NCBI GenBank assembly: GCA_965238275.1
Contig: OZ250186.1
Location: 2,144,001 to 2,208,000, forward strand
Source of the DNA: Nitrosopumilus sp.
Lineage (GTDB): Archaea; Thermoproteota; Nitrososphaeria; Nitrososphaerales; Nitrosopumilaceae
Direction: 5' to 3'
DNA length: 64,000 nt
Positions 197-15,158 of the stretch are shown piece after piece; the first letter of the stretch is position 1; each line of letters opens with the position of its first letter. Both the position numbers and the translations under genes were made by a program. The notes beneath the pieces are model-generated. The model had not been told where the DNA came from. It did no database searches and saw nothing but the letters and a program-made list of their open reading frames with translations.

Positions 197-2016
197 ATGC
201 CCCGGGCAGGTGTCCCTTTAGGCATGGCTCCTTCTCCTCCTCCAAAATCCGAAAAGCTGATCCTGCAGGCGGAGCTGCGCCGCGCATGGGGCGTGGCCGA
301 CTGCCTGATCGGAGTGGTTGCGACGTGTTTGGGACTGGTGGATTCGCTGAGGGGCAGGCTGGCACAAAAAACCAGGGAGAATGACGACTTGAAAAAAGAG
401 ATAGTCAAGCTCAAAAGGATGCTGTCGGTCCACGAGAGTTGGAACCACTCGTCCAGGGAGGCAGTCCTGTTTGCCAAGAAGCGAAAAGAGTTCCAGAGGA
501 GGGCCGGCGCCGGGACCGGCGGGGACGGTGGTGAGGAAGACGGTCAATATCCATCCAGAGGAGGGCCGGCGCCGGGACCGGCAGTGCCAGTCCTGACGGA
601 AAACGGTGCGGACACCAGCCCGGGACAGAGGGCGTCTCCCACGGCCACAAGCCGACTGAAACCAAGACATATCGGGCAGACATGTGCAAAAACTGCAGCA
701 GCACGGACACGCAGCCCGAAGGGATGTATTGGAAGATTGTACTTGATTTGACCCGATGTGATGGCAACAACAACATGGTCTGCCATGTGGAGGAGACCGT
801 GCCGGCATACTGCACCAGGTGCGGCACCGTCACGCACCCCGAGACTGGCACCATTGCGGGATCATCACTTGGGCCCGGCCTGAGGAGAATAATCGCCAAC
901 ATACACGAAGTCGTGCCATCCGTAAGGTCCATCCAAAGGCTCCTGGCATCAAACCACGGCGTCACGTTATCGACGGGGTGCATATCCAACTGCCTGTCGG
1001 GGGTGACCAAACGCGCAAAAGGGAACTGTCCGGAAACGACTCCCGGCCATGCAGAAACCCCGTTGGTCTCCAAGGGGCCGTTGTCGCTGCTGCCGCCGTC
1101 GCCTGCAGACTGCGGGCCGTATGACCCGAGCCGGGATGCCGTCTGGTCCGGCATGGCAACACAGCCGCTTGTCAGACAGATAGAGGAAAAGATCAGCATG
1201 GCCCCATGCGTGCAGATAGACGAGTCGCGAAAAAACATCGGGGGCAGGCAGGCACAGGCCCTGGTGCTGGACACAGAGCATGCTGTCCTCATACGCATAG
1301 AGAAGGACAAGTCCAGGAAGACCATGGAGGGTGCCTTTTGGATGGCGCTGAACAGGCCGTTTGTGGCAGACATGTACCGCGGCGGCTGCGCCTTTGCAGG
1401 AGAGTTCCAGTCGTGCTTTGTGCACGTGAACCGCAAGAGCGAGGGCCTGGCCATTCGCCACGGCATCGACTCGTTCGAGTACGTCCTGTACGTCATGATG
1501 CGCGGCATATACCATGACGCCAAGGCAGCAGCTGCCAGGACCCTCGAGATGGCCGGGGGGCAAGCAGTGCAGTCTGCCTGCGACATCGGCGCCGCCGTCA
1601 GGACAGTTCCAGGACTGGCAGAACACGTCGAATCAAGCCGGTCTGACCTGCTCAAGCGCCTCGGAAAGGTGGCCCACGCATACCGGAACGGCGCAGTCTC
1701 TGATGATGCCAGCCGCGAGTTTGCAGGCACGCTTGAAAACGCAATGCCGTACCTCCTCACGTTCATCGGACATCCGGGAATGGAGGGCAGCACCAACGCC
1801 TGTGAGAGAACCATACGCGGGTATGTCGTGAGGCCGCGCAACATACAGCGCATACTTCCGAACCGGCGCGCCGCAGACAACCTTGCCACGCTCCAGACGA
1901 TTCACGCCACGTGCGCAAAACGCGGAATATTCTCAGGCGATGCAGTCACCGCGTGCGACTCGTGGAACATGTTCGAGGCCGGGACGCCGCCGCCGATACT
2001 TCCGAATCTCAAATGA
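197..2016 (+). pseudogene. IS66-family transposase split by a frameshift at ~535-553
   Basis: N-terminal coiled coil in ORF 197-751. GHQPG..G.SH, CxxC pairs, QIDES, ADMY, QSCFVHV and TNACERTIR motifs lie in the frame of ORF 682-2016. Confidence 0.8.
492..582. repeat. 29-bp direct repeat, two copies 62 bp apart
   Basis: TCCAGAGGAGGGCCGGCGCCGGGACCGGC at 492-520 and 554-582. Confidence 0.95.
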
Positions 2017-2394
2017 CCGCGCCACGGCATCCGGCAGATCAGGGTTGTTGCCGCACCATTTTGGTTTAGACAGGACACGTTGCAGAACATGCCACAAAAA
2101 GCCGCAGGCATGTCTGCATGATGACATCTTATTCTTGCTATGCATTTTCACACACTGGCATATCTCTGATGGATGCTTCCATAATGGAGTCAGAATCACA
2201 TACCCATGTATGACATCCCAGCTAGCGTGGAATTGGCAAGGGGGGACGTGAACGCTTACCCTGCAGAATGCCCCAATGCGTAAGCGGCTGGGTTTACGCC
2301 TAATTCCACAATGTTGCAGACATCAAGCCCAAACAGTTTGCCTCCAATGCCTCAAATAGGCAAATATAGAGGAAGAACGGCACAGATCTCAGAT

Positions 2395-2562
2395 ATGTGT
2401 GAATGCTCAAAGGTTCACCTGTACGAGGTTGAATTCAAGCTTGATGGCATGACAGTCGTCCCCACCCACAAGAACTGCGGATTCGCCCTGGATCAAAAGC
2501 AGTCCGACAAGTTTCAGAAGGATCTTGTAAGATCATGGGGCATGGAAGACGAAGAGGACTAA
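2395..2562 (+). CDS. Small hypothetical protein (55 aa), possible metal binder
   Basis: MCECSKVH...THKNCG. AT-rich TATA-like box about 30 bp upstream. Confidence 0.65.
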   Translation: MCECSKVHLYEVEFKLDGMTVVPTHKNCGFALDQKQSDKFQKDLVRSWGMEDEED

Positions 2563-2586
2563 AAAATAAAAGGAATGTAAGTTTTT

Positions 2587-2721
2587 CTAGTGTTCAGTGT
2601 TCTTGCATATATCTTGATTGCAATCGCAAGAAGCGTCACAATAACACTCACTCTGCATTGCGCAGTCACATTCGGTGCCGTTCTCGGCCTGTGCTGCACA
2701 TCCACATGCTGCATCTGACAT
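2587..2721 (-). CDS. Metallothionein-like Cys-rich peptide (44 aa)
   Basis: MSDAACGCAAQAENGTECDCAMQSECYCDASCDCNQDICKNTEH: 9 Cys, four CxC motifs. TTTTAAAA box at 2743-2750. Confidence 0.7.
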   Translation of the reverse strand: MSDAACGCAAQAENGTECDCAMQSECYCDASCDCNQDICKNTEH

Positions 2722-2735
2722 ACTATACCTCACAT

Positions 2736-3000
2736 GCACTTGTTTTAAAAGGTTATAGCGGCGAGCGAAAATTCGTGCAAACAGATCTCTCTGTAGCATG
2801 TCCTGATGCTCTTTCCGGCGCTCTGTCAGACCTTCCAATATTGTCGTCGTTGTCGGATCCAAGCCGACCTGTCGAATTGTTCATTCCAGAACCATCCGAT
2901 CCGTGATCCTCGCGCCTTGTGACGACCTCGACACCTGCAATGGTGCCTCCACGATTCCCGTGGGCTTGGCCGCCAGTCTCCTCCGTATGGAGACAGTCAT
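2736..3000 (-). ncRNA. Predicted omegaRNA (scaffold in tnpB 3' tail plus flanking guide), copy 1
   Basis: Hairpin 2872-2899 covaries with copy 2. Sequence is conserved up to the element end and diverges after it. The 5' boundary is approximate. Confidence 0.65.
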
Positions 3001-4198
3001 TATCCAAAATGTTTTTTGCCGCGTTCTTGTCGGCATGGTGGCACCATCCGCATGAGACGCAGACAAATGATTCGCCGTTCCTGGACTTTTTGTCCACTAC
3101 CCCGCAGGCAGCGCACCTCTGGCTTGTATGTGCGTGTTCCACGCGTCTTGAAATTCCGCCTTTCTTTTTCATCTGCCATTCAAGCTGGATCCTGAACTCG
3201 CCCATTCTGGAATAGGCCATCTCGCGGTTCAACCCCGTCTTTGAAGCAGCCCCGTTGGATCGCCTCATCTTGGTCAAATCCAGATCTTCCAGGAACAATA
3301 CGGACAGTCCTTTTGTTATCCGTCTGGCAATGTCGGCCTCGTTGTGTTTTTGCCTGTTTGATGTCTTTTTCAATTCATGTGCTATCTTGCGCCCGATCTC
3401 TTTCCATCTTCTGGAGCCTGCCTGGCATCTTGATCTAAGTGATTTCAGCTGATCAATCCTGTCGCCGTCATGCCTCTTGCAGCCTCCGGGGACATTGTGC
3501 AGTTTTTCGTTCCCATGCTCGTCTGCGACTGCCGCAAGGTGCCTGACTCCAAGATCTAGCCCTGCCTTGCATCCGCCGCCACCGCCTGTCGCGGGTTCGG
3601 GGTCTGGGACTTCTATCTGCAAATGCAGTTTGAATTCGCGATCACCATCCTTGGTCTTGCGCGTGGCCTTGCCTGTGATATCGATCATCTGGAATGACAC
3701 GAACCTGCCTTCCGGGATCTTTACGCGCGGCCTTACTTCCCCGAATCCGGGCAGAAATACGGCTCCACTGTCTCGCAGTTTTGGCTTTGCGCGTGAATTC
3801 AGCGAGCGCAGCCTGGTTGTTTTCCTGCCGCGCCTCATCAGGCCAGACGGCTCGGTCCACCGATTGTGCTTGTACGTTTTCTTTTTCCCCACCAGCTTGA
3901 TCTGTTTCTTGCGCCAGATGCGCTTGTTGTGCTTGAGCCGGTTTGCCTTGCGGAATTTGACTGCCGCCTGGAAAGCCTGTTTTGAGGCGGCCTCATGCAT
4001 GCGGACGCTGTTGGTCAGGTTGAATTCCCTGCGCCATCCTGTTATCAGGTTGTTGACATCAAACTGCGTGATCCGTGAGTGTGCAAGTTTCATCATGATT
4101 GTCATGTCGTAAATGATGTCTGTTTCCCGGGAGCATTTCACGATCTTGCGTGACAGTTCCCGAGATTGTGTTATCTTGATGATTTTACTGACAATCAT
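2753..4198 (-). CDS. tnpB: RNA-guided endonuclease TnpB
   Basis: RuvC-I GLDLG, RuvC-II FLEDL, CxxC-CxxC zinc finger, RuvC-III HADKNAAKNI. All three catalytic acidic residues are present. Confidence 0.92.
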   Translation of the reverse strand: MIVSKIIKITQSRELSRKIVKCSRETDIIYDMTIMMKLAHSRITQFDVNNLITGWRREFNLTNSVRMHEAASKQAFQAAVKFRKANRLKHNKRIWRKKQIKLVGKKKTYKHNRWTEPSGLMRRGRKTTRLRSLNSRAKPKLRDSGAVFLPGFGEVRPRVKIPEGRFVSFQMIDITGKATRKTKDGDREFKLHLQIEVPDPEPATGGGGGCKAGLDLGVRHLAAVADEHGNEKLHNVPGGCKRHDGDRIDQLKSLRSRCQAGSRRWKEIGRKIAHELKKTSNRQKHNEADIARRITKGLSVLFLEDLDLTKMRRSNGAASKTGLNREMAYSRMGEFRIQLEWQMKKKGGISRRVEHAHTSQRCAACGVVDKKSRNGESFVCVSCGWCHHADKNAAKNILDNDCLHTEETGGQAHGNRGGTIAGVEVVTRREDHGSDGSGMNNSTGRLGSDNDDNIGRSDRAPERASGHATERSVCTNFRSPL

Positions 4199-4600
4199 AC
4201 CTGTGGTTGGGATTTATTTTCTTAAAAAGGATCTCAAAAAATTGCACGAACTCCCATGTGTTACGGGCATCCAAACCCGTTGATGTTGTGTGTTGACAAT
4301 GCGTCTGGTCCAGTCCGGTTTGGGTTGGTCGGGCAGTTTTTTAAAGATTTGTGGATCAATTGGGTAATTTTAGGCATGTCCGTGTCCGAACCGGCAGGCA
4401 CTGCGTGCGTATCCAGAAGAATGGTGCACAGCTGCCGCTAGGAATCCCCTCCCCCGTATCCGGAGGAAATGGTAGGCCAAACTCCTACAGTCAATATCAT
4501 TTTCGGCAAGCCGGGGGGACGGAAGGGGGCGTTGAGTCGCCCTCCGCTTGTGCAGGGGCGGCGAAACGCACCCCGGGTTCTCCAGTTTCCCCCAGGACGC

Positions 4601-5672
4601 CTAGACCTTGGATTCGGCAATGCGTTTTATTCTCTGGAATTTTCGTCTTACAAGATCCCTGTCCTGGGTCCTGTACTCGGTGCTGTGCTCAAGCATCTCC
4701 CAGACCCATTCGAGCATCTGCCTGGCCACGGCGACCCTTGCCTTCATGGGTCCTATGCGGGTTGCCAGTCTTTGGTAGCGCGCCCCTATCCGGACATCGT
4801 GCTGGACGGCAACTAACGCGGCCTCGACCATGGCGCGGCGCAGCCAGACGGAGCCGCGTTTTGTGATGCCGCCGGTCCTGACGGTCTCCCCGCTGTTGTG
4901 GTGTTTTGGCACCAGGCCGGCGTATGAGGCCATCTTTTCGGCGTCAGCAAACCTGCTGTGGTCGACTATTTCGGCAAGTATGGTTACTGCCGTAATGTAG
5001 CCTATTCCGGGTATGGTCATGATCAGCTGTGCCCTCCTGTCGCTCATTGCAATCCCGGCTACCTTTTTTTCAAATTTTGCCACCTGCTTTAGTACGGTAT
5101 CGATGGTGGCCAGATGCGACTGCACCGCCATGCGGTCAACCTCCCTCAGGGGCACGGCCTGCAGCCACTCGAGTCCAGGTCCCGTAAAGTCCTCCCTTGG
5201 GCTGCTCGTGCGGGTATTTGGCCAGGATCGCGTGGATGCGGTTCTTTGGGGCGGTGGCGTACATCTTCATGCCCAGGCGGGTGCGGGTCAGTTCGCGCAG
5301 GTCCCGCGCGGGCTTGTCGGCCACGAACGACTCCGGGATCATGTCCAGCCTGCACAGGTCTGCCAGCTTTGCCGAGTCTGCCTTGTCGTTTTTGTAGACG
5401 GTTTCGGTTATGATCTTCGTGTTGTGTGGGTGGGCCAGCAGGGTGTTGATGCCGACATCCTCGAGCATGTCGTGCACGACTATCCAGTAGTTGGCCGTGG
5501 ATTCGCAGACGGCCGTAGCCGGCACGTATCCTTCCTTGCGGATCATCTTGACGAATTCGGTTATTCCCCGGACATTATTGTCAAATTCAGCCTGCCTTAG
5601 TATCTTGTTGGTTTTGCCCTTGATGGTTGAAACGCATTTCTTTTTGTGAACGTCTATTCCAATGTAATACGT
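4601..5672 (-). pseudogene. IS110-family recombinase (DEDD + Tnp_20 domains), frameshifted at ~5180, start codon apparently ACG
   Basis: IGIDVHK, CEST, KNDKADS, IPGIG and AGLVPKHHNSG motifs. Shine-Dalgarno GGAGGTGA 4 nt before ACG at 5672. Confidence 0.9.
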
Positions 5673-5699
5673 GCTATCACCTCCTTTGCAGCATATCGG

Positions 5700-5863
5700 A
5701 CCCGACCAGCGGAAAACTCCCATTCACCGTCAAAGCGGTATTTGACCATCCGCATACCTTGAGTCACTCTTTCGCACGCCATCATAAGTGGCAAGTTCGT
5801 GTCGACTCTCAGGTCCAACAGGGTAAATGCCATGATCACCGTTACAACGGCAACACATGGCGT
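5700..5863 (-). ncRNA. Predicted bridge RNA (target-binding loop 5808-5761, donor-binding loop 5753-5709)
   Basis: Two stem/internal-loop/stem units whose loop arms match the insertion target and the circle junction. Confidence 0.8.
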
Positions 5864-5973
5864 CTTTCGCTTTTCACTATAGTACAGGAACATGGTTTAT
5901 ACAAATAGGATCAACTCCCCCCATACATGGCAGTCGACTGTGATTTCCTGTGCGGTGTCCGGGCAGAACCGGG

Positions 5974-6852
5974 CTATACGCCTGATACTGTCTCGAGTAT
6001 GGAGTTGCACGAGGTTTTGATGAGGCCGGCCTGCTCCTCCAGCAGGCCAGAGTCGGCCCCCGTGTCAAAGGCGGTTCTCAGTACATGGAAGAGATCCCGC
6101 CTCTCATCCAGGGTGCCCTTGATTCTTTCAAAGTTCTGCCTGTTGACATACCCCAGATAAAAATAACAGTCAGTAGGCATGGAGTTTCCTAGGAAGAAAT
6201 CATATTTTGACCGGATGGTCCCAGAAACGCCTGCCCGGACCATGTCAGAGAATCCGATCGTTGATTTGAGCATCCGCTCAAGGAGGGTGGTAGTCGCCCT
6301 CTCCATTCCTATCGTCTGGGTCACAGACGAGATGTGCTCGTTGATGGGATTCTTGGGAAGCAGCCGAAGCGTCTCAAGCATGTGGGAGGGACTTGGTTTC
6401 CGATGGTTCAGGAGACATATCGCGTCTGCCAGGCAGTATGAGGCACATTTTTGCCAGAACGGGGCAAATGCGTCGGATGCTTGGATCCCCTTCATGGTTC
6501 TCTGAATGCAGAACAGCGCCTCGATCAGATTGTTCCGGGCAAGATTGGTAAAGAGTGCCGGCTTTTTTGCCTGGACCCTTGATACAAGCATTCTCAAATC
6601 CCACGACTCGTCCTGGATTATGTGCATCCCGTCATATCCGAGGAGAACCTTTGGGTCATTCCAGGACAGGGAGGCATGGCGGATGACGGCATACGAATCC
6701 CCGTACCGGACCGTCTCATGCCCGGATCTTTCGTCAAAGACAAAGACGTCATACCCGCATGATTCAAAATGGGTGCCGGCGGCCCTGCATCCCCCCAGTC
6801 CGGCCGGAAACGAGTCCAACCCCCTCCCCTCAAGAAGTCTTTTCAGATCCAC
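5974..6852 (-). CDS. Hypothetical protein, possible nucleotidyltransferase-like N-terminus
   Basis: 292-aa ORF with normal composition and a GG...YDVFVFD segment. Confidence 0.7.
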   Translation of the reverse strand: MDLKRLLEGRGLDSFPAGLGGCRAAGTHFESCGYDVFVFDERSGHETVRYGDSYAVIRHASLSWNDPKVLLGYDGMHIIQDESWDLRMLVSRVQAKKPALFTNLARNNLIEALFCIQRTMKGIQASDAFAPFWQKCASYCLADAICLLNHRKPSPSHMLETLRLLPKNPINEHISSVTQTIGMERATTTLLERMLKSTIGFSDMVRAGVSGTIRSKYDFFLGNSMPTDCYFYLGYVNRQNFERIKGTLDERRDLFHVLRTAFDTGADSGLLEEQAGLIKTSCNSILETVSGV

Positions 6853-7025
6853 ACCATGACAAATAGCAAAATTCCCTTAAAGGGTGTCAGCCCACAAAAT
6901 TTTACAAACCGCACAAAGTCAGAGTCCCCCCTGCTGTCAGTCCGGAATGGGTTCCGGCCGTGCCGCGTGCAAGGGCAGGTTCCAAGCATTTCCTTTAAAT
7001 TGAGAAACAGCCCGCCTTTTATCAA

Positions 7026-7100
7026 GCTCCTATAGTGTAGTCCGGTTAAGCATACTGCCCTCTCAAGGCAGTGACTCGGGTTCAAATCCCGATGGGAGCA
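7026..7100 (+). tRNA. tRNA-Glu(CTC)
   Basis: Cloverleaf with anticodon arm CTGCC-CTCTCAA-GGCAG and T-loop TTCAAAT. Confidence 0.95.
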
Positions 7101-7135
7101 TTGCATTACTAAAATAGTTAGGCTGCGTACACGTA

Positions 7136-7786
7136 GTGTTGAGCCTGAAAGAGATCAAACTCAAAGACGAATACCGGTCTGACACGAGCAACATCACAGA
7201 GGACTTTTTCATCCCGTGCCTTGAAAACTGCACGGAGTATCACAGGTGTACAGAGACGCTCTCAATCAAGGCGCTAATCATGATGGCTACAAGACTTGAC
7301 AACATTACAGACGGCACCACGGTGCTGAGAATGGTCATAGGCCACAGGCTCAGAGTCAGTGACCTGAACATGCTCATAAGGCTGTTCTCTGAAGGAGCCA
7401 GACTTCCCAGGGGAAAGCACGCAAAGACCATTCAACGGATAAAGGATGCAGTCAGACAGGGCAGCATTCAGGTCAGGATTGCAGTACCAAACTCAGATCA
7501 CATCATAGATTCCGTATCAGAAAGGGTTGGGATATTCAGGGACGGCGAGAACAACATGGTGGCATTTACCGGAACTTTTAGGGAGGCCATCGCATCCCCG
7601 ACAAAGGAGTTTGAGGCAATAGATGTCTTTACGTCATGGAATGACATGTCAAGGGTGAAAAGAAAGATGGAGCACTTTGAGCAGCTGTGGCAGAACAAGG
7701 CAAAACATCTGGACGTGTATGACTTTGTGCATGCAGAAAAAAAAAGCCTTCTCAAATACTCCTCGGACTGGCTGATGCAGTGCTAG
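7136..7786 (+). CDS. Stand-alone PLD-like domain resembling N-termini of SF2 helicases, HKD motif degenerate
   Basis: YRSD...DFFIPCL at the start and SERVGIFRD...VAFTG...FEQLW later in the protein. Confidence 0.65.
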   Translation: MLSLKEIKLKDEYRSDTSNITEDFFIPCLENCTEYHRCTETLSIKALIMMATRLDNITDGTTVLRMVIGHRLRVSDLNMLIRLFSEGARLPRGKHAKTIQRIKDAVRQGSIQVRIAVPNSDHIIDSVSERVGIFRDGENNMVAFTGTFREAIASPTKEFEAIDVFTSWNDMSRVKRKMEHFEQLWQNKAKHLDVYDFVHAEKKSLLKYSSDWLMQC

Positions 7787-8349
7787 GCCTCAAACGGCTC
7801 CTCTGGCGTGGCGGACTTGTTTTCATAAAAATTCATCCTGTTAATCTTGTAGTATATGACCTCGCCGCGGCGCTCAATGACTGCAATTATCGGCTCCTTT
7901 CCCATCTGCGTAATCTCGTCAATCTTTTTTTGCAGGGCGCCCATCCTCTCCTGCCGGCCTTCGCTGAGGCCAAATATGAGAAACTTGGCACCCTTTTGTC
8001 CATAGTCCCCCCTCTCATAAACCCTAAAATCAGAACCGAACCCAAAGCCGTCCTTTACCACATAGCCGCGATTGCGAAGGTCGCGATATATCAGGAATCT
8101 TGTCAGTATCTCAGGATCGGTCTTTTGGCATGTGCTGACAAAGGAGTCAAAGTCAGTCTGCCGTCCTCCCTTGGTCAGGGTAAGGCGGTTGGTGTACAGC
8201 AGGTAGAGCGTTTCAAACTGCTTTAAGACAAGTCTCTTTCCTTCGGCGTCTCCAAACCCCTTCTGTTCAAGCTCGTGGATCATCTCCCGGTCGGATATGT
8301 ATACGCGTGAGGAGATCAGCTTACCGGTAACCAGCGGGGTCTCATCCAT
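7783..8349 (-). CDS. endA: tRNA splicing endonuclease subunit
   Basis: YRDLRNRGYVVKDGFGFGSDFRVY motif. Confidence 0.9.
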   Translation of the reverse strand: MDETPLVTGKLISSRVYISDREMIHELEQKGFGDAEGKRLVLKQFETLYLLYTNRLTLTKGGRQTDFDSFVSTCQKTDPEILTRFLIYRDLRNRGYVVKDGFGFGSDFRVYERGDYGQKGAKFLIFGLSEGRQERMGALQKKIDEITQMGKEPIIAVIERRGEVIYYKINRMNFYENKSATPEEPFEA

Positions 8350-8448
8350 GATATGATGGGTGCCTGATGGTTTCCATATAAGCATTGGAATGGCGGCGGT
8401 TTGGGGGACCGGTCGGTTCAGGGGGAGGCGTTATAGGGTTCGTATCCG

Positions 8449-8492
8449 GGCAGGCAGGCAGGCAGGCAGCAGCAGCAGCAGCAGCAGCAGCA
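8449..8492. repeat. Compound microsatellite (GGCA)n(GCA)n
   Basis: Directly visible, intergenic. Confidence 0.9.
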
Positions 8493-8567
8493 CCCCACAA
8501 ATGCGCGGCAGGCGTTGAAGGGATTGGAACCGGCACGGGCCGGTCCGGCGGTTTGGTCACATGCGCA

Positions 8568-10209
8568 GTAAACACTCAGGTCCCCCCAATCCACCTTGTT
8601 AATTCAGACTGCGACTGTCATTGCAGGTACTTCGCATGGAGGAGGCTTGAATATTTTCCAGCCAGGATCCCTGATGAGCGATTCCACTGCGATGCGTGGC
8701 AGTATTCCCTGCTTGTGGCAGGTGCGCGCAACTGAAACAAGTACAGAAAAGACCTTCATTCCCTCCGCCACTGACAGCTTGTGGCGCACGTTCCTCTGTA
8801 GCACGACGGCGTCGCGTATGTCCCGTTCTGCATCGTTATTGTGTGGAGGCATGCCGGGGTACTGCAGATACGTAAACAGGTCGGGGGCCGCACCCTCAAG
8901 GGTGGTCTTGAAGGGGTGGGATTCCCCGTAGGAGGCGGCAATTCCAAGCACGCGTTTTTCCAGGTCCCGACGCTTCGCGGCATCAGCCGTGTCCAGATCC
9001 TTAATGTCATGATACATTTTGAGCAGCCTTTCGTACTGGAGCAGATCATTGCCGCCGTTCCTGATTGCCAGCTTTTCAGCCTCGCGGAGCAGGTGTACCC
9101 AGCACCGCTGTTTGATTGGAAACACGCTGTATCCGGCATACCCGTCCACCACGACAGGAATGCCCAAAAGCCCGGCAAAGTGAAGTTCCAGTACGGCAGC
9201 GGCCCTGGTGTGGGCCACCACCACGTATGTTGCGTCTTTTATGGTGACAAGCCACGCATAGCCCCTCTTGCCGTTGATCTTGATGTATGATTCGTCCATC
9301 TGGATGTAGGGCGCGTCTGCCATCCTGTCCATGATCTCCTTGTATGCGCCCTCCAGGAGGCGCTTTAGCGCCACGCGCGCATTCCATATGGTGTTGGACG
9401 AGATCTCAAACTTGTATAATGCGTTGAAATAGTATGCGACGGTCTGGTCCGTGCTTCTCTTGTTGTAGTATTCCAGCACGAATCCCAGCGCCTTGGGGCC
9501 CAGTGACGTGCCGCACAGCGTGGGATCCGGGGCGGCAGTTATTGTGCCGCATTTGCAGCATGCTGCCTTTTCCATCACGTATGCGATACATTTGATCCCA
9601 ATCGCGTCGTCGTCGGGAAAGTCATAGACCATCTTCACTTTTGGAGCCGTATGCTGGAGCGTCTTGCTTCCGCAGCTGCCGCACCTGCTTACGCCCAGGG
9701 TAATCGTTCTGCCTGCCTTGTTCTTGTGCGAAACTCCGACATGGCCCATGGGCGGTCCGCGGCCGGTATTGTTGTTTTTTGATTCTGCATCGCCTGCTTC
9801 CGGTTTTGTGCCATCTTCTTCGGGTTCTGCATCACCCCCTTTTGGTTCTGCATCCTTTTCACGCTCCTTCCGGAAGGCATCGCGCTCTGCATTGTACATG
9901 GAAATGGTGGATGATGACATGTGCTCGCTTTCGTATGCTGCAAGCTTTCTGTCACGTTCTGCCAGATCAGATCTCAATGAATCTATTTCACGTACAAGCC
10001 TGATTGTCTCCTTGGCCAACGTGTCCTCCATCTCTTTTACCTTGGTTCTGAACATTTCATTCTCTCCGGCCAGTTTTCTGAATTCCTCGCGCAGGAGCGT
10101 AAGATCGGATTTACTCATGTGGTGGTTTTTAGACGCTACGATCTAAATTGTGATGGTCTAAATGGATGCATGTTCTGGTCAATGTTTAGGCAGGGACCTG
10201 AGTGTTTAC
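8568..10209 (-). mobile_element. IS66-family single-ORF element, complete
   Basis: Perfect 17-bp TIR GTAAACACTCAGGTCCC. 8-bp TSD CATGCGCA at 8560-8567 and 10210-10217. Confidence 0.95.
8604..10118 (-). CDS. IS66-family transposase
   Basis: QMDES, VVDGY, QRCWVHLLR and HNNDAERDIR motifs, zinc ribbon and N-terminal coiled coil. Confidence 0.92.
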   Translation of the reverse strand: MSKSDLTLLREEFRKLAGENEMFRTKVKEMEDTLAKETIRLVREIDSLRSDLAERDRKLAAYESEHMSSSTISMYNAERDAFRKEREKDAEPKGGDAEPEEDGTKPEAGDAESKNNNTGRGPPMGHVGVSHKNKAGRTITLGVSRCGSCGSKTLQHTAPKVKMVYDFPDDDAIGIKCIAYVMEKAACCKCGTITAAPDPTLCGTSLGPKALGFVLEYYNKRSTDQTVAYYFNALYKFEISSNTIWNARVALKRLLEGAYKEIMDRMADAPYIQMDESYIKINGKRGYAWLVTIKDATYVVVAHTRAAAVLELHFAGLLGIPVVVDGYAGYSVFPIKQRCWVHLLREAEKLAIRNGGNDLLQYERLLKMYHDIKDLDTADAAKRRDLEKRVLGIAASYGESHPFKTTLEGAAPDLFTYLQYPGMPPHNNDAERDIRDAVVLQRNVRHKLSVAEGMKVFSVLVSVARTCHKQGILPRIAVESLIRDPGWKIFKPPPCEVPAMTVAV

Positions 10210-10259
10210 CATGCGCATTGTGAACCGTTAAAATATGGGCGTCACGGCTTGAGGGCATC

Positions 10260-10774
10260 ATGCATGGTGCCAACTACAGGAACGGAACAGGCCAGCCATT
10301 TACGCGAAAGCAGTACATCAAGGGAAAACCGCAGATAAAGATCGCCAAGTTTCAGGGCGGCAAGAGGGGAACATACCAGTACTGCGTCCAGCTTCTCATT
10401 AATGAAAAGATTCAGATCAGGCACATGGCCATCGAGTCGACCAGACTTGCGGCAAACAAGACCCTGGAGAAGACAGTCGGGGAGACTGGCTACTATTCCA
10501 GACTCAGGATATACCCGCACAATCTCCTCAGGGAGAACAAGATGATTGCCGCCGCAGGCGCAGACAGGCTTCAGGAGGGAATGAGGCGTGCATGGGGCAA
10601 GGCAACAAGCCTCGGGGCAAGGGTCAGACAGGGCCAGTGCATCATAGACCCCGACATTATGTCAACGGGAGTGAACACCTGGAGGCTTCGAAAAAGGCAC
10701 TCAGGGGATCGTGCGTAAAGCTGCCCGGAACCCCGACAATCAAGGTAATCGAGTGGAACAAGCCATCACCATAG
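10260..10774 (+). CDS. rpl10e: 50S ribosomal protein uL16 (L10e) with an apparent frameshift at ~10647-10657
   Basis: LRENKMIAAAGADRLQEGMRRAWGK. The C-terminus YVNGSEHLEASKKALRGSCVKLPG is in another frame. Confidence 0.85.
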
Positions 10775-11029
10775 GCCCTCCAGCTGCTGCTTTTTGCCCC
10801 TTACAAACGCCAAGAATTCCTCAAACTCTTCTTTTGTCGGTTCGCGCCCAAGCACCCTCCTTGACTGATAGTAGAATGCGTTATAGAGCCTCCCCATCGC
10901 TATCCCCAGTACAAACGACCGGGAATAGTCTGCCTCAGAAAGGGATCTGGCCAGCTGCAGTATCTCATCCCTGTTTGAGACAGTCTCCTGAATCTTCTGT
11001 TCCAGCCGCTCAAGGATCACCCCATTCAC
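10766..11029 (-). CDS. Hypothetical protein
   Basis: 87-aa ORF with upstream TTTTAA box. Confidence 0.7.
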   Translation of the reverse strand: MNGVILERLEQKIQETVSNRDEILQLARSLSEADYSRSFVLGIAMGRLYNAFYYQSRRVLGREPTKEEFEEFLAFVRGKKQQLEGLW

Positions 11030-11092
11030 GACTAATGTTGGTCTTTACTGTTAAAAACAGTTTAATATTCAAATCCGGATTCTAGAACTGTC

Positions 11093-11169
11093 GCAGTTAT
11101 AGTATAGTTTGGTTATTATGCGAGCTTGCCAAGTTCGTGACCCGGGTTCAAATCCCGGTAACTGCACCA
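11093..11169 (+). tRNA. tRNA-Gly(GCC), CCA encoded
   Basis: Acceptor GCAGTTA/TAACTGC and anticodon arm CGAGC-TTGCCAA-GTTCG. Confidence 0.95.
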
Positions 11170-11597
11170 TCGGGTTCCAGGGGCGTCAGGGCCTTCCTGA
11201 TTATTGCCAGGGCATCCTGTGCCCTTGCAGGATTGGGCAGCTGAATCATAAAGACGTTATCCCTGCCGTAGTGGGATCTTGGGGAGGATAGTGCAAGCAT
11301 CGTGGCATCTGCAAGGGACTCGAAGAATGCCAGATCGGTTTTTGCATTGACCATGAATCTTTCAACCATGCCGCCCTTTGAGAACTCTAGAACAACATCC
11401 ACAAAGACATGCCCCAGCCCGTCCTGCAGGATGTTCAGATTGGTGTCGATCGAGAGCGGCCTGCCTGCAATCTCAGACAGCAGATCGTCATACCGGCTCG
11501 CCTCAATAACAATGCACGGGACCCTCCTGCCGTCAAAGTCAAAGGTGGTGACTCCGTCATGCACCCGGCTGAGCAGTCTCTTTAATTCGTCAGGCAT
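11148..11597 (-). CDS. Hypothetical protein
   Basis: 149-aa ORF whose start overlaps the antiporter stop. Confidence 0.75.
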   Translation of the reverse strand: MPDELKRLLSRVHDGVTTFDFDGRRVPCIVIEASRYDDLLSEIAGRPLSIDTNLNILQDGLGHVFVDVVLEFSKGGMVERFMVNAKTDLAFFESLADATMLALSSPRSHYGRDNVFMIQLPNPARAQDALAIIRKALTPLEPDGAVTGI

Positions 11598-12966
11598 CGT
11601 CGTCCTGCTCGTCCATTGAAAGTACCTTGTCTCCGGCCCGTACCATGTATGGTGTAAGAAACGAGGTGATTATCGCGATCATTCCCATCAGCGGAAAGAG
11701 AAAGGCGCTGACTGCGCCTATGTCCACGCCGGTCTTAATAATTACGATTGAGAATTCGCCTCTTGGCGCAGCCAGGGTAAATGCGGAGCGAAACACGCCT
11801 CCGCGCCGCTGGCGGAATATCAGGCTGGCAATCGTGTTTCCCCCAAACTTTGTACCGATGGCCACTGCAATCAGTGCGACGGCTATGAGCATATAGTCGC
11901 CAATATTGGTAATGTCCATCAGGGCGCCTATGGATATGAAAAATATTGCCACGAACATGTCCTTGATCGGGCTTGAGAGCAGCTTGGCCACTTCGGCCGA
12001 CTTTGATTCGGCCACAAGCACCCCTGCCAAAAACGCCCCGATTGCAACAGAGAGCCCCACGACGTTTGTCAGCAGGGCGTATCCAAAGCAGATTCCAAGA
12101 ATGGTAAGCAGTAGGATTTCACGATGCTCGGTTGCAGCAACCCTGTCGATCAGGGGCGTGATCAGGCGGGTGCCGACTGCAAACGTTCCAAAGATCAGTG
12201 CGGCGGCGACTGCCACAACAGTTGCAACCGACTCTGGAGATACGGTTCCAATCAGGGCAACGGACTGCAGCGAGCTGAGCAGTATTACGGCAATTACATC
12301 CTCCACAATCAGGATTCCCAGAACCCGGATGGACGACTTTTGTTGGATCTTCCCTGCATCCTCCAGAATCTTGACGATTACAGCAGTGCTGGAGATGGAC
12401 AGGGCCGCTGCAATAAACAGGGCGTCCATGAACTCCAGGCCAAGCGCAGTCGCCACGTAAAATATGGCCCCCAGCGACATGAGCAGCCCCATCGTGCCCA
12501 CGCCTATGGTGGCCCGGCCTATGCTTCGAATCTTTGCGTACGGGAACTCGATTCCAATGACAAACAGTAGCAGTATGACTCCGATATCGGCAAAGAGGTG
12601 CAGGGCAGAGATGTCAGCCAGCAGCCCCACCTCGCCGAAGATGCTGGGATCCCTCCCGTCAGGCAGAATCCATGACCAGAACGGCGAGAGAGGGCCTATC
12701 AGCATTCCCGCAAAGAGATATCCGATGATCAGCGGCTGCCGTATCTTAAAGAATGCAAGGGCGACTACGGCCCCAATAATCATGATAAAAGCCAGATCAG
12801 TGATAAAGTTGGTATGGTAAAATCCAGGAGTGACCTGGTCAATAATGGTGGTTACGGTACTGTTGAACGAGTCTTGGATTGTTGACGGATCCAGCTGGAG
12901 TAAGAAGTTCTGCATACTAACAGTTTGTACAGTATGCTTAAAAATAGATGCCATGGCAGATGGCAC
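11590..12966 (-). CDS. CPA2/Kef-type cation:proton antiporter (start uncertain, probably later)
   Basis: Many TM helices, SISSTAVIVKIL, GILIVED, GAFLAG and PRGEFS motifs. Confidence 0.88.
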   Translation of the reverse strand: MPSAMASIFKHTVQTVSMQNFLLQLDPSTIQDSFNSTVTTIIDQVTPGFYHTNFITDLAFIMIIGAVVALAFFKIRQPLIIGYLFAGMLIGPLSPFWSWILPDGRDPSIFGEVGLLADISALHLFADIGVILLLFVIGIEFPYAKIRSIGRATIGVGTMGLLMSLGAIFYVATALGLEFMDALFIAAALSISSTAVIVKILEDAGKIQQKSSIRVLGILIVEDVIAVILLSSLQSVALIGTVSPESVATVVAVAAALIFGTFAVGTRLITPLIDRVAATEHREILLLTILGICFGYALLTNVVGLSVAIGAFLAGVLVAESKSAEVAKLLSSPIKDMFVAIFFISIGALMDITNIGDYMLIAVALIAVAIGTKFGGNTIASLIFRQRRGGVFRSAFTLAAPRGEFSIVIIKTGVDIGAVSAFLFPLMGMIAIITSFLTPYMVRAGDKVLSMDEQDDDA

Positions 12967-13230
12967 CCATACCCCGGAACTGACGCGGATCCGGCATCAC
13001 ATAGCCTGCAGGCCAAACCGCACCATGCCGTAGGACGTATTGGACTCACGGATTCGTGCGATCCGGAGATACGGCGCATGCCAAATCCCTTTATTGTCAT
13101 GGAACCGCACACACACATAGAGACAGTCACATGACCAAGTGCGGGGTGATGAGTAGGTCGACTGAAACGGGATGTGGAGACATGACCTGGGGTATTTGAC
13201 TGCATTAGGTTATGCCGTGTTTGGGTTCTG

Positions 13231-14720
13231 TAGTGAAAAGCGAAAGTTCGTGCAATTTTTTGGATCCCTTTTTAAGAAAACAAATTCTATCCACATACAT
13301 GATTGTCAGCAAACGCGTTACGATAATGCAGTCTCGGGAATTGTCACGCAAGATTGTAAAATGTTCCCTGGAAACAGACGTCGTTTACGACATGACCATA
13401 CTGATGAAACTGGCCCATCCCAAAATGACCCAGTTTGACGTGAACAACCTGATAACTGGCTGGCGCAAAGAATTCAACCTGACCAACAGCGTCCGCATGC
13501 ATGAGGCCGCGTCCAAGCAGGCCCTCCAGTCGGTAATCAAATTTAAGAAATCAAATGTGAAAAAACACGCAAAACGGATCTGGCGCAAGAAGCAGATAAA
13601 GCTCGGCAAGGCCAGAACGTACAGGCACAACAGGTGGACGGATCCGTCCAGCCTGATGAGGCGCGGCAAGAAGACAACCAGGCTGCGTTCGCTGAATTCG
13701 CGCGGAAAGCCAAAACTGCGAGACGACGGCACGGTGTTCCTGCCCGGACTCGGAGGGGTAAGGCCGCGCACGGAGATCCCCGAAGGCAGGTTTGTGTCGT
13801 TCCAGATGATCGACATTACAAACAAGGTCACGCGCAAGACCAATGACGGTGATCGCAGGTTCAAACTGCATTTGCAGGTAGAAGTTCCAGACCCCGAACC
13901 AGCTGCAGGCTGCAAGGCAGGGATCGATCTGGGCGTCAGGCACCTTGCGGCAGTCGCAGACGAGGACGGGAACGAAAAACTGTACAATGTTCCTGGCGGG
14001 TGCAGGCGTCACGACGGCGACAAGATTGACCGGTTGAAGTCACGCCGGTCAAAATGCGTGCGCGGTTCGCGCAAATGGGGAAAGGTCGGCCGCATGATAC
14101 AACGTGAATTGAAAAAGATATCCGACAGGCAGAAACACAACGAAACGGGCATTGCCAGGCGGATAACAAAAGGCCTGTCTGCGGTATTTTTGGAAGACAT
14201 GGATTTGACCAGGATGAGGAGATCCAACGGAAAGGCACCAAAGACCGGGTTGAACCGCGAGATGGCATACTCTAGGATGGGGGAGTTTCGGAGCCAGGTT
14301 GAATGGCAGATGAAAAAGAAAGGCGGAGTTTCAAAACGCGTGGAATACAAGAATACCAGCCAGAGGTGTGCTGTTTGCGGAACTGTGGACAAAAAGTCCA
14401 GAAACGGCGAATCCTTTGCCTGCACTGCATGCGGGTGGTACCACCACGCCGACAAGAACGCGGCAAAAAATATTTTGGATAATGACTGCCTCCACATGGG
14501 GGCTGGCGGCCAAGCCCACAAAAACAGTGGAGGCACCATTGCAGGTGTCAAGGTCGTCACAAGGCGCGAGGATCACGGTTCAGGCAGTCCTGCAAGGGAC
14601 AGCTTGACAAGTCGGCTTGGACCCGACAACGATGATTTTGGAAGATCTGACAGAGCGCCGGAAAGGGCATCAGGGCATGCTACGGAGAAATCTGTTTGCA
14701 CAAACTTTCGCTCGCCGCTA
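13231..14720 (+). mobile_element. TIR-bounded TnpB element copy 2, intact ends, no transposase
   Basis: Left end TAGTGAAAAGCGAAAGTTCGTGCAA vs reverse complement of right end TAGCGGCGAGCGAAAGTTTGTGCAA. TA at both termini. Confidence 0.85.
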
Positions 14721-14780
14721 TGGTACCAGTCACACTGCAGAGCCAGAACCCAGACGGCCCGCATAAGGAACCGCCAATAG
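13299..14780 (+). CDS. tnpB: RNA-guided endonuclease TnpB
   Basis: GIDLG, FLEDM, zinc finger and HADKNAAKNI. Close paralogue of 2753-4198; start set by alignment (MIVSK). Confidence 0.92.
   Translation: MIVSKRVTIMQSRELSRKIVKCSLETDVVYDMTILMKLAHPKMTQFDVNNLITGWRKEFNLTNSVRMHEAASKQALQSVIKFKKSNVKKHAKRIWRKKQIKLGKARTYRHNRWTDPSSLMRRGKKTTRLRSLNSRGKPKLRDDGTVFLPGLGGVRPRTEIPEGRFVSFQMIDITNKVTRKTNDGDRRFKLHLQVEVPDPEPAAGCKAGIDLGVRHLAAVADEDGNEKLYNVPGGCRRHDGDKIDRLKSRRSKCVRGSRKWGKVGRMIQRELKKISDRQKHNETGIARRITKGLSAVFLEDMDLTRMRRSNGKAPKTGLNREMAYSRMGEFRSQVEWQMKKKGGVSKRVEYKNTSQRCAVCGTVDKKSRNGESFACTACGWYHHADKNAAKNILDNDCLHMGAGGQAHKNSGGTIAGVKVVTRREDHGSGSPARDSLTSRLGPDNDDFGRSDRAPERASGHATEKSVCTNFRSPLWYQSHCRARTQTARIRNRQ
14470..14740 (+). 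ncRNA. Predicted omegaRNA, copy 2
   Basis: GNRA hairpin 14580-14607 covaries with copy 1. The guide would be the flank after 14720. The 5' boundary is approximate. Confidence 0.65.
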
Positions 14781-15158
14781 TCATCACATGCAGCAGTGGC
14801 AGATGCCAAGACATGGTTCTGATGAACGGTGCATAAAAGCAGTCGAGTGTCACATCAGGCAGATTCTGCACAAGGCAGGCATGCTGCAGGGGATACAGCA
14901 TCAGGCCACAGGCATGGCATTACAGGAATGGAAGGGGCAGACGCCTCTAACACGTGGCGGCAGGCCGTGCAATTTGGATCCACAAAGTATTAGTAGTACC
15001 GTACTATACAGTACCATATGATTCGATGCCAGCACTGCACCATGCCATTCACGGCAACTGCAGACGGGATGGCCGAAAAGACATTTCATGAGATTCTCCA
15101 CGGTCCCAAAGTAGTCAACTAGCCCAACTCTTTTATGATAATTTTTTTAATGGAATGC

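What the first reader, a model, noticed from the sequence alone, without database searches (positions are those of the whole stretch)
4240..5879. IS110 bridge recombinase apparently programmed against the terminal repeat of a TnpB transposon
Seen: the TnpB-element left end is intact at 13231 (TAGTGAAAAGCGAA-AG-TTCGTGCAA). In copy 1 it is split at the AG (CT on +, 5864-5865 and 4251-4252) by a 1.6-kb IS110 element. Upstream of the recombinase the minus strand reads GAGUC-gaCACGAACUU-GCCA-cuuauga-UGGC-guGCGAAAGagu-GACUC (5808-5761), a stem/internal-loop/stem. Its 5' arm is complementary to the right half of the target (AAGTTCGTG, 9 nt) and its 3' arm equals the left half (GCGAAAG, 7 nt); both include the core. 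Known: this is the target-binding-loop logic of IS621 bridge RNAs, and IS4321/IS5075 target Tn21-type TIRs. Inference: an archaeal RNA-guided recombinase that parasitises, and probably immobilises, an RNA-guided nuclease transposon.
Basis: partly seen in the sequence, partly recalled or inferred. Interest (0 to 1): 0.95.

Follow-up and report, generated by a model that had tools for sequence, protein, structure and literature searches.

The report
RNA-guided IS110 element in transposon ends
A decayed archaeal insertion sequence of the IS110 family carries a guide ("bridge") RNA whose loop arms spell out the terminal repeat of another transposon family, some members of which carry the RNA-guided nuclease TnpB; it is a clean natural example of a known mechanism, not a new one.

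Summary
A 1.6-kb IS110-family element (window 4251-5863, minus strand) splits a repeat that is intact at 13231. Upstream of its recombinase gene lies a stem/internal-loop/stem whose 5' arm complements the right half of the target and whose 3' arm equals the left half, overlapping at AG. This is not chance: 0 of 200,000 shuffles contain both arms. Across 14 distinct arm/flank pairs from five genomes, the 3' arm matches its own left flank at 59 of 70 variable positions, a score that 0 of 100,000 re-pairings reach. A second loop matches the element's own ends, and the helices carry compensatory changes.

Three corrections apply. The target is a 25-bp terminal inverted repeat shared by IS630-family transposons and TnpB-carrying derivatives, present at both ends. 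All copies in this genome are dead, and the two near-identical ones are not independent insertions. The arm order and the 9-bp subterminal repeats are those reported for IS1111-type seekRNA elements, not IS621.

IS110/IS1111 elements that target the inverted repeats of other transposons are already known (IS4321/IS5075, IS1383). "Immobilises" is untested. Verdict: a new member of a known kind, of moderate interest.

The parts
5864..5879 (-). Outer 16 bp of the terminal inverted repeat (TAGTGAAAAGCGAAAG) of the TnpB-carrying element. It includes the AG core copy at 5865-5864 and is preceded by TA (5881-5880).
4251..5863 (-). IS110-family element, 1613 bp counted with one AG core copy (4252-4251). 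Ends are ACGCCATGTGTT... and ...AACACATGGGAG, with 9-bp subterminal inverted repeats CCATGTGTT/AACACATGG.
5687..5863 (-). Left non-coding end that encodes the bridge/seek RNA: a 5' hairpin, the target loop and the donor loop, closed by ACCUGA/UCGGGU.
5761..5808 (-). Target-binding loop. Outer stem GAGUC/GACUC and inner stem GCCA/UGGC. The 5' arm CACGAACUU is at 5801-5793 and the 3' arm GCGAAAG at 5775-5769, followed by two handshake-position bases.
5709..5753 (-). Donor-binding loop. Outer stem GCGGA/UCCGC and inner stem ACCG/CGGU. The 5' arm UGGUCAAAU is at 5748-5740. The 3' arm AAUGGGAG, at 5724-5717, equals the right end of the element plus the core and is followed by UU.
5136..5723 (-). 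N-terminal piece of the recombinase (DEDD/RuvC-like domain). It ends because of a 2-bp deletion near 5187.
   Evidence: table 4.
4601..5155 (-). C-terminal piece of the recombinase (Transposase_20 domain, with the NSG serine motif), in another frame.
4253..4600 (-). Long right non-coding end, about 350 nt, of unknown role. Most of it is deleted in copy B.
4226..4250 (-). Inner part of the split inverted repeat (TTCGTGCAA at 4250-4242), followed by the A/T-rich box CTTTTTAAGAAAA upstream of tnpB.
2753..4198 (-). tnpB gene (481 aa, open) of the interrupted element. The right inverted repeat is at about 2756-2780, followed by TA.
13231..13255 (+). Uninterrupted inverted repeat of a second TnpB element in the window. 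This is the unoccupied target, GCGAA-AG-TTCGTG.

Best explanation
This is a dead copy of an IS110-family (DEDD plus serine) RNA-guided recombinase element from an ammonia-oxidising archaeon. Its left non-coding end encodes a bridge/seek RNA with two internal loops.

The target loop pairs with both strands of the site GCGAA-AG-TTCGTG(C). The 5' arm pairs with the coding-sense strand to the right of and across the core. The 3' arm pairs with the other strand to the left of and across the core. The donor loop pairs in the same way with the joined ends of the element (...CATGGG-AG-ACGCCAT...). Recombination at the AG core, which reads CT on the other strand, inserts the element without duplication.

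The specified site lies 16 bp inside the 25-bp terminal inverted repeat of a family of TA-flanked IS630-type transposons, many of which carry tnpB instead of a transposase. Guide variants in different copies match different variants of that repeat, so the lineage has been re-targeted repeatedly within this repeat family.

Shown here: the anatomy, the matches, the covariation and the conservation of the catalytic residues. Inferred: that the RNA is made, that it is bound by the recombinase, and that recombination proceeds as it does in IS621 or ISEc11.
For: 1. Junctions and an intact target are present in the window.

2. Family membership. PF01548 and PF02371 are found in the two ORF pieces. 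An 89%-identical intact 372-aa relative (L038) scores 241.5 bits on NF033542, cut-off 140. It aligns to IS621 at E = 1.5e-18, with the D, E, D..D and SG residues in register.

3. Left-flank covariation. The 3' arm equals the left flank in copies whose arms differ: GCGAAAG (A, B), GCAAAAG (C, H), TCAAAAG (D), GCATAAG (L036), TAGTTAG (L038, L052), CACTCAG (L039), TTGACAG (L042), TTGATAG (L045) and GTAATAG (L016, L019). Of 14 distinct pairs, 9 are perfect, and 59 of 70 variable positions match. None of 100,000 re-pairings reaches this.

4. Right flank. The 5' arm predicts the right flank in 7 of 12 copies that keep a right junction: A, B, D, L037, L038 and L045, plus C through one G.T.

5. Genomic targets. 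All 22 exact copies of GCGAAAGTTCGTG in the genome lie in the inverted repeats, 11 in left-type and 11 in right-type, against 0.07 expected by chance. The predicted sites of the C, D and H guides also occur only at element tips.

6. RNA structure. There are 20 consensus pairs in 4 helices, 98.7% of cells paired against 31-48% when the partners are slid, and 7 pairs with compensatory changes. Invariant G.U pairs fix the coding strand as the RNA strand.

7. Donor loop. The 3' arm AUGGGAG equals the invariant right end. The 5' arm covaries with bases 2-7 of the left end: AUGGUC/ACGCCAT, AUAGUG/ACACTAT and AUAUCC/AGGATAT.

8. Handshake positions. The two bases after each 3' arm behave like IS621 handshake guides. 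In most copies the AC after the target arm equals the first two bases of the element. The UU after the donor arm equals the first two bases of the right flank here.
Against: - No direct evidence of transcription. The only RNA-library hit is a contig of a relative.
- The fold is no more stable than its shuffles (z = -0.70), and no Rfam family matches.
- Five of 12 right flanks do not match their own 5' arm (L015 partly; L022, L036, L042 and L043).
- Five of 14 left pairs are imperfect (I, E/F, L015, L022, L043).
- The donor-loop 5' arm does not reach the core. AAAU stands where UCU would be needed, and in the window copy only 4 to 5 of its 6 positions pair.
- All copies in this genome are defective, so none of this can be active here now.
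- 22 perfect targets remain empty.
Confidence: 0.85

Rival explanations
1. The repeat is chosen as a safe, many-copy landing site and vehicle, not as a weapon. The element rides inside IS630/TnpB transposons and spreads with them, including by recombination between their copies. Any harm to the carrier is incidental.
For: There are 22 perfect targets, all in mobile DNA and none in host genes. Copy B acquired the same dead IS110 plus about 150 nt of A-type flank by recombination into a different TnpB subfamily, so spread without the recombinase has happened. tnpB and its A/T-rich upstream box stay intact next to the insertion. Other IS110/IS1111 elements target REP sequences, attC sites and transposon ends (reference lists and passages seen).
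Against: Cutting the repeat 16 bp from the tip should impair recognition by an IS630-type transposase. No composite copy with new TA flanks and an identical body was found, so no transposition of the composite has been seen.
Confidence: 0.5
2. One reading: the insertion functions to immobilise the TnpB/IS630 transposon, as a hyperparasite that disables its host element.
For: The insertion separates the terminal 16 bp from the remaining 9 bp of the inverted repeat. Guide variants track repeat variants, as an antagonistic chase would produce.
Against: Nothing tested here bears on the mobility of the interrupted elements. Only 8 left junctions (6 events) are seen against 22 empty perfect sites. 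The IS110 lineage, not the TnpB lineage, is the one that died out in this genome.
Confidence: 0.25
3. Target choice is made by the protein recognising the partly palindromic repeat (CGAA-AG-TTCG). The arm matches are a by-product, for example captured target DNA.
For: The target is partly palindromic.
Against: Relatives with unrelated, non-palindromic targets show the same arm/flank correspondence. The arms sit in internal loops of a conserved structure with compensatory changes. The recombinases are 89-93% identical where the targets differ.
Confidence: 0.03
4. The match is a chance resemblance.
For: None beyond the short length of the arms.
Confidence: 0.01

Closest known systems
IS1111-type seekRNA elements (ISEc11, ISKpn4, ISPa11; Siddiquee et al. 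2024, PMC11187229; passages read)
   Same: A DEDD recombinase. A guide RNA with short matches to both strands of the target that overlap at the insertion point. The top-strand complement lies 5' of the bottom-strand match. Subterminal inverted repeats are present. No target duplication. Relatives show natural re-targeting.
   Different: Here the guide RNA lies upstream of the recombinase gene; the paper reports this only for exceptions such as ISMtsp17. The subterminal repeat is 9 bp rather than the usual 11-13. The terminal extensions are 3-5 and 1-3 bases rather than 7 and 3. The host is archaeal.
IS621 bridge RNA (Durrant et al. 2024, PMC11208160; Hiraizumi et al. 2024, PMC11208158; passages and one section read)
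   Same: A 5' hairpin plus two stem/internal-loop/stem modules upstream of the gene. In each loop the 5' arm ends in CU and the 3' arm ends in AG. Arm lengths are 9 and 7. Two handshake positions follow each 3' arm. The recombinase is homologous (E = 1.5e-18).
   Different: In IS621 the CT strand is the coding strand, and the 5' arm matches the flank next to the left end. Here the coding strand reads AG, and the 5' arm matches the flank next to the right end. The donor 5' arm does not cover the core.
IS4321/IS5075 in Tn21-family inverted repeats (Partridge & Hall 2003) and IS1383 in IS1384 inverted repeats (Müller et al. 2001); titles seen in reference lists only
   Same: An IS110/IS1111-family element whose specific target is the terminal inverted repeat of another transposon.
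   Different: Those are bacterial and target Tn3-family or other IS elements. Here the target family is IS630-type and includes TnpB carriers. I did not read those two papers.
IS630-linked TnpB with symmetrical ends (Altae-Tran et al. 2023, PMC10691335; passage read)
   Same: tnpB sits inside elements with inverted-repeat ends of IS630 type.
   Different: Here most copies carry tnpB alone and share the repeat with separate IS630-transposase elements. I did not test whether they belong to that paper's branch.

Membership tests
IS110 family (DEDD/serine RNA-guided recombinase) | RuvC-like DEDD domain (PF01548) plus Tnp domain (PF02371) | tested here: met
   69.1 and 99.4 bits in the two ORF pieces. 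NF033542 at 241.5 bits (cut-off 140) for the intact relative L038.
IS110 family (DEDD/serine RNA-guided recombinase) | Catalytic D, E, D, D and S residues | tested here: met
   the alignment to IS621 keeps GID, CES/IEA, D..D and SG in register. The window copy keeps the same motifs, but its frame is broken by a 2-bp deletion.
Bridge/seek RNA | Conserved RNA with two stem/internal-loop/stem modules in a long non-coding end | tested here: met
   20 pairs, 98.7% paired, 7 compensatory, against 31-48% paired in the slid controls.
Bridge/seek RNA | Target-loop arms match opposite strands of the target and overlap at the core | tested here: met
Bridge/seek RNA | Donor-loop arms match the joined ends of the element | tested here: inconclusive
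   The 3' arm equals the right end plus the core in all 19 aligned copies. The 5' arm covaries with left-end bases 2-7 but does not cover the core, and it pairs at only 4 to 6 of 6 positions.
Bridge/seek RNA | The RNA is transcribed and bound by the recombinase | not testable with these tools
   One search gave only contigs. An RNA-library contig of a relative over 5611-5814 does not prove transcription.
IS110 group (IS621, ISEc21 type) | Bottom-strand match (same sense as the left flank) lies on the 5' side of the loop, and the core reads CT on the coding strand | tested here: not met
   Here the 5' arm complements the coding strand and the core reads AG on it, in all 19 copies.
IS1111 group | Top-strand complement lies 5' of the bottom-strand match | tested here: met
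   against the passage.
IS1111 group | Subterminal inverted repeats (7-17 bp by Durrant et al.; usually 11-13 bp by Siddiquee et al.) | tested here: met
   CCATGTGTT/AACACATGG, 9 bp. This is within the first range and below the second.
IS1111 group | Long non-coding region with the guide RNA downstream of the gene; terminal extensions of 7 and 3 bp | tested here: not met
   Both loops lie upstream. The extensions are 3-5 and 1-3 bp. A second long non-coding end does lie downstream (4253-4600).
IS110/IS1111 family | Insertion without target duplication; circular intermediate | tested here: inconclusive
   The target has one AG and each junction has one, which fits. No circle junction could be sought, because all copies here are dead and only contigs were served.
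IS630 family (the target elements) | DDE_3 transposase with HTH domains, terminal inverted repeats, TA flanks | tested here: met
   (175.1 bits, cut-off 100). The repeats and TA flanks are shown.
TnpB | OrfB_IS605 plus Cas12f1-like TNB domains; NF040570 | tested here: met
   (121.6 bits, cut-off 100).

The most novel reading that the evidence does not exclude
A lineage of RNA-guided recombinase elements in ammonia-oxidising archaea has specialised on the terminal inverted repeats of IS630/TnpB transposons and follows their sequence variants by re-programming both guide arms. That would be a transposon-on-transposon chase in which insertion disables the carrier's end. The lineage would also be an intermediate form between the IS110 and IS1111 groups, combining the IS1111 arm order and subterminal repeats with an IS110-like upstream two-loop bridge RNA.
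Probability: 0.25. Interest if true: 0.6.

Novelty: new member of a known kind. Interest (0 to 1): 0.4.

Why it matters
The locus gives a compact natural series of re-programmed bridge/seek RNAs: at least nine different 3' arms, each with its matching flank, in one archaeal family. One relative has an intact recombinase and could be tested directly. It shows one RNA-guided mobile element living inside the ends of another, an IS630-type element carrying TnpB. It also documents a mixed IS110/IS1111 architecture in archaea. It does not reveal a new mechanism, and the copies in this genome are fossils.

Tried and rejected
- **Rfam.** An E-value scan of window 2000-16000 found only two tRNAs and no bridge-RNA family.

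- **A new polarity class.** I first read the reversed arm order relative to IS621 as new. I dropped this after reading in Siddiquee et al. that this order is typical of IS1111-type seekRNAs and that exceptions with upstream non-coding regions are on record.

- **A and B as independent insertions.** Rejected. They share the 2-bp deletion and differ by 1 base in 1,266. B's flank switches from the A subfamily to the 428236 subfamily about 150 nt beyond the element.

- **AUGGCGU as the donor guide.** I considered that AUGGCGU in the inner stem of the target loop served as the donor guide. Rejected, because it does not covary in G006.

- **Sequencing runs.** All four runs laid were contigs.
  - Joints that skip 4239-5864 carry variant letters and come from other, uninterrupted copies of the repeat. 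They say nothing about an empty allele at this locus.
  - The RNA-library run X21 holds a 221-nt contig over 5611-5814 with 19 differences. This is a relative, and DNA carry-over is possible, so transcription is not shown.
  - Parts of the stretch without cover mean nothing.

- **The target in G061.** I looked for the target of the intact relative in G061. Two occupied sites share the right flank. A third, imperfect and empty site lies just after a tRNA gene. I did not establish whether that repeat is a transposon end.

- **Literature.** Five searches and a passage search of one archaeal IS survey found no description of an IS110-family element in IS630/TnpB repeats or in Nitrosopumilaceae. 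This is not proof that none exists.

- **Not used.** Supplementary files were not opened, although supplementary tables of Durrant et al. and Siddiquee et al. may list related elements. I did not use the search for homologous proteins, structure prediction, complex prediction or the protein atlas.
Full report
**What is there.** Read on the minus strand, the window runs TAGTGAAAAGCGAA-AG, then a 1.6-kb insert that begins ACGCCATGTGTT and ends AACACATGGG-AG, then TTCGTGCAATTTTTT. The same repeat is uninterrupted at 13231-13255. The insert carries the two Pfam domains of IS110-family recombinases in two different frames.

**Copies in the genome.** The window lies in a single 2.217-Mb contig. BLAST of the element finds 13 pieces at nine places, plus one weak 69-nt match that I did not follow.
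- Four places hold most of the element, and all four copies are defective.
  - A is the window copy.
  - B is 99.9% identical to A and has a 309-bp internal deletion.
  - C is 93% identical, with a 92-bp insertion and further indels.
  - D has an 814-bp deletion.
- Five places hold fragments (E, F, G, H, I).
- A and B share a 2-bp deletion that breaks the frame; C and D do not have it.
- Beyond the element, B's flank is 98.5% like A's for about 150 nt. It then becomes 98-100% like a different TnpB subfamily, the copy at 428236. B therefore received the dead element by recombination, and A and B count as one insertion event.
- E and F share their flank and lie 1.8 kb apart.
- The left junctions thus record six events: A/B, C, D, E/F, H and I.

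**What the target really is.**
- The TnpB element is about 1.5 kb and gives more than 20 matching places in the genome.
- It ends in inverted repeats: TAGTGAAAAGCGAAAGTTCGTGCAA on the left, and TAGCGGCGAGCGAAAGTTCGTGCAA (reverse complement) on the right.
- In the 18 copies I listed, TA lies outside the left end in 16 and outside the right end in 17.
- The same kind of repeat (TACTGACGATCAAAAGTTCGTGCACAG) bounds elements that encode an IS630-family transposase: DDE_3 plus HTH domains, and NF033545 at 175.1 bits.
- TnpB inside IS630-type elements with symmetrical ends is on record (Altae-Tran et al. 2023, passage).
- Where the IS110 copies sit:
  - A and B are in the left repeat of the main TnpB family.
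  - C is in the repeat of a divergent 484-aa TnpB element.
  - D is in an IS630-type repeat with no TnpB next to it.
  - E/F and H are in tips that resemble the other IS630-type end.
  - I is in a variant of the TnpB tip.
- All eight left junctions lie 16 bp inside such a tip.

**The guide RNA.**
- The MFE fold of the left end gives a 5' hairpin and two stem/internal-loop/stem modules inside a closing helix. The energy is not exceptional (z = -0.70).
- I collected relatives from the same family.
- In an alignment of 19 left ends, RNAalifold returns exactly the two modules.
- 98.7% of cells are paired, against 31-48% when the partners are slid. Seven of 20 pairs carry compensatory changes.
- Three G.U pairs that are invariant or nearly so would be A.C on the other strand. 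The RNA is therefore read from the coding strand.

**Programming of the target loop.**
- A regular expression extracted the flank and both arms from 19 copies.
- I collapsed identical pairs: B with A, H with C, F with E, L016 with L019, and L052 with L038. This left 14 distinct pairs.
- The five variable bases of the 3' arm equal those of the copy's own left flank at 59 of 70 positions, and 9 of 14 pairs are perfect. None of 100,000 re-pairings reaches either figure.
- Four more copies were not caught by the expression. By eye they give 5/7 (L041), about 5/7 with a changed core (L046), 6/7 (L017) and 7/7 (L020).
- The misses among the 14 pairs are I (6/7), E/F (5/7), L015 (5/7), L022 (4/7) and L043 (4/7). 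L043's flank equals the arm of its neighbour copy L042, as would happen if a guide RNA acted in trans.
- On the other side, the 5' arm predicts the first six bases of the right flank in 7 of 12 copies that keep a right junction: A, B, D, L037, L038 and L045, plus C with one G.T. It fails in L015 (shifted), L022, L036, L042 and L043.
- Inside this genome the guide variants fit repeat variants on both arms. The A guides fit GCGAAAG|TTCGTG, the D guides fit TCAAAAG|TTCGTGC, and the H guides fit GCAAAAG|TTTTTG.
- All 22 exact copies of the A-type 13-mer lie in the repeats, 11 left-type and 11 right-type, where 0.07 would be expected by chance.

**Donor loop and handshake positions.**
- The 3' arm of the second loop (AAUGGGAG) is invariant and equals the invariant right end plus the core.
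- Its 5' arm changes with the left end: AUGGUC with ACGCCAT, AUAGUG with ACACTAT, AUAUCC with AGGATAT, and ACAACA or AAAACA with ACGTTAT. Between 4 and 6 of the 6 positions pair. The arm stops short of the core, where AAAU stands.
- The two bases after the target 3' arm are AC in most copies, which equals the first two bases of the element. The window copy has AG.
- The two bases after the donor 3' arm are UU here, which equals the first two bases of the right flank.
- This is the pattern that Hiraizumi et al. call handshake guides (passages).

**Comparison with what is known.**
- The recombinase of the intact relative aligns to IS621 and ISCro4 with the catalytic residues in place and passes NCBI's IS110 model.
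- In IS621 the core reads CT on the coding strand. The 5' arm of each loop has the sense of the left flank or the right end, and the guide RNA lies in the left end.
- Here the two-loop RNA is also upstream, and the arms end in CU and AG as in IS621. But the coding strand reads AG, and the arms are assigned to the opposite flanks.
- Siddiquee et al. state that this order, with the top-strand complement first, is the rule in IS1111-type seekRNAs. They also state that IS1111 elements have subterminal inverted repeats, and that a few have an upstream non-coding region or two long ones (passages).
- The present element has 9-bp subterminal repeats and long non-coding ends on both sides. It is best placed as an IS1111-like member with an upstream bridge RNA, not as a new class.
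- IS110/IS1111 elements that land in the inverted repeats of other transposons are long known. IS4321/IS5075 do so in Tn21-type repeats, and IS1383 in IS1384 repeats. I saw only the titles of those papers in reference lists.

**What remains open.**
- Transcription is not shown.
- Whether the split repeat still works for the IS630-type transposase is untested, so 'immobilises' is a guess. The one spread event that can be traced, A to B, went by recombination.
- The role of the 350-nt right non-coding end is unknown.

**Verdict.** This is a new member of a known kind, with a useful natural re-targeting series but no new mechanism.

Noticed in passing
window 2753-4250 and 13231-14780; G000 copies listed: The tnpB elements have 25-bp terminal inverted repeats and TA on both sides, and they share the repeat type with IS630-family transposase elements (L047). 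So tnpB here rides in IS630-type, not IS200/IS605-type, transposons. The left flank is almost always nCTA.
   Followed up: partly
window 2753-2780: As listed, the tnpB reading frame runs through the right inverted repeat to the last bases of the element, and its stop codon overlaps the TA flank. In this copy the repeat's target reads GCGAAAATTCGTG, with the core changed.
   Followed up: no
L028:1441-2556 (G000:C1:1923482-1924597): A second, unrelated and apparently intact IS110-family gene (371 aa, both Pfam domains) lies between fragments H and I of the studied element.
   Followed up: partly
L003 / G000:C1:504038-504125 (copy C): A 92-bp insertion with a short duplicated ATGCGT sits at the start of the recombinase gene. 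It looks like a miniature mobile element.
   Followed up: no
window 4253-4600: The right non-coding end is long (about 350 nt), G+C-rich and present only in the G+C-rich clade. It is deleted between short direct repeats in copy B. Its function is unknown.
   Followed up: no
L039 (record labelled Dehalococcoidia MAG, 46-kb contig): This locus has a 66%-identical recombinase with the same bridge RNA and a perfectly matching left flank (CACTCAG), in a record labelled as bacterial. Mis-binning or horizontal transfer could explain it.
   Followed up: no
L060:1440-1520 (G061): In the relative genome with intact copies, a third, empty and imperfect copy of the target lies directly after the 3' end of a tRNA gene. 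That target repeat may be the edge of an integrated element.
   Followed up: partly
window 8604-10118 (-); 7026-7100 and 11093-11166 (+): An IS66-family transposase ORF and two tRNA genes lie between the two TnpB elements.
   Followed up: no
G000:C1:1089330-1089476 and 1091184-1091322: Fragments E and F are the same truncated left end with the same flank, 1.8 kb apart. This is a local duplication.
   Followed up: no
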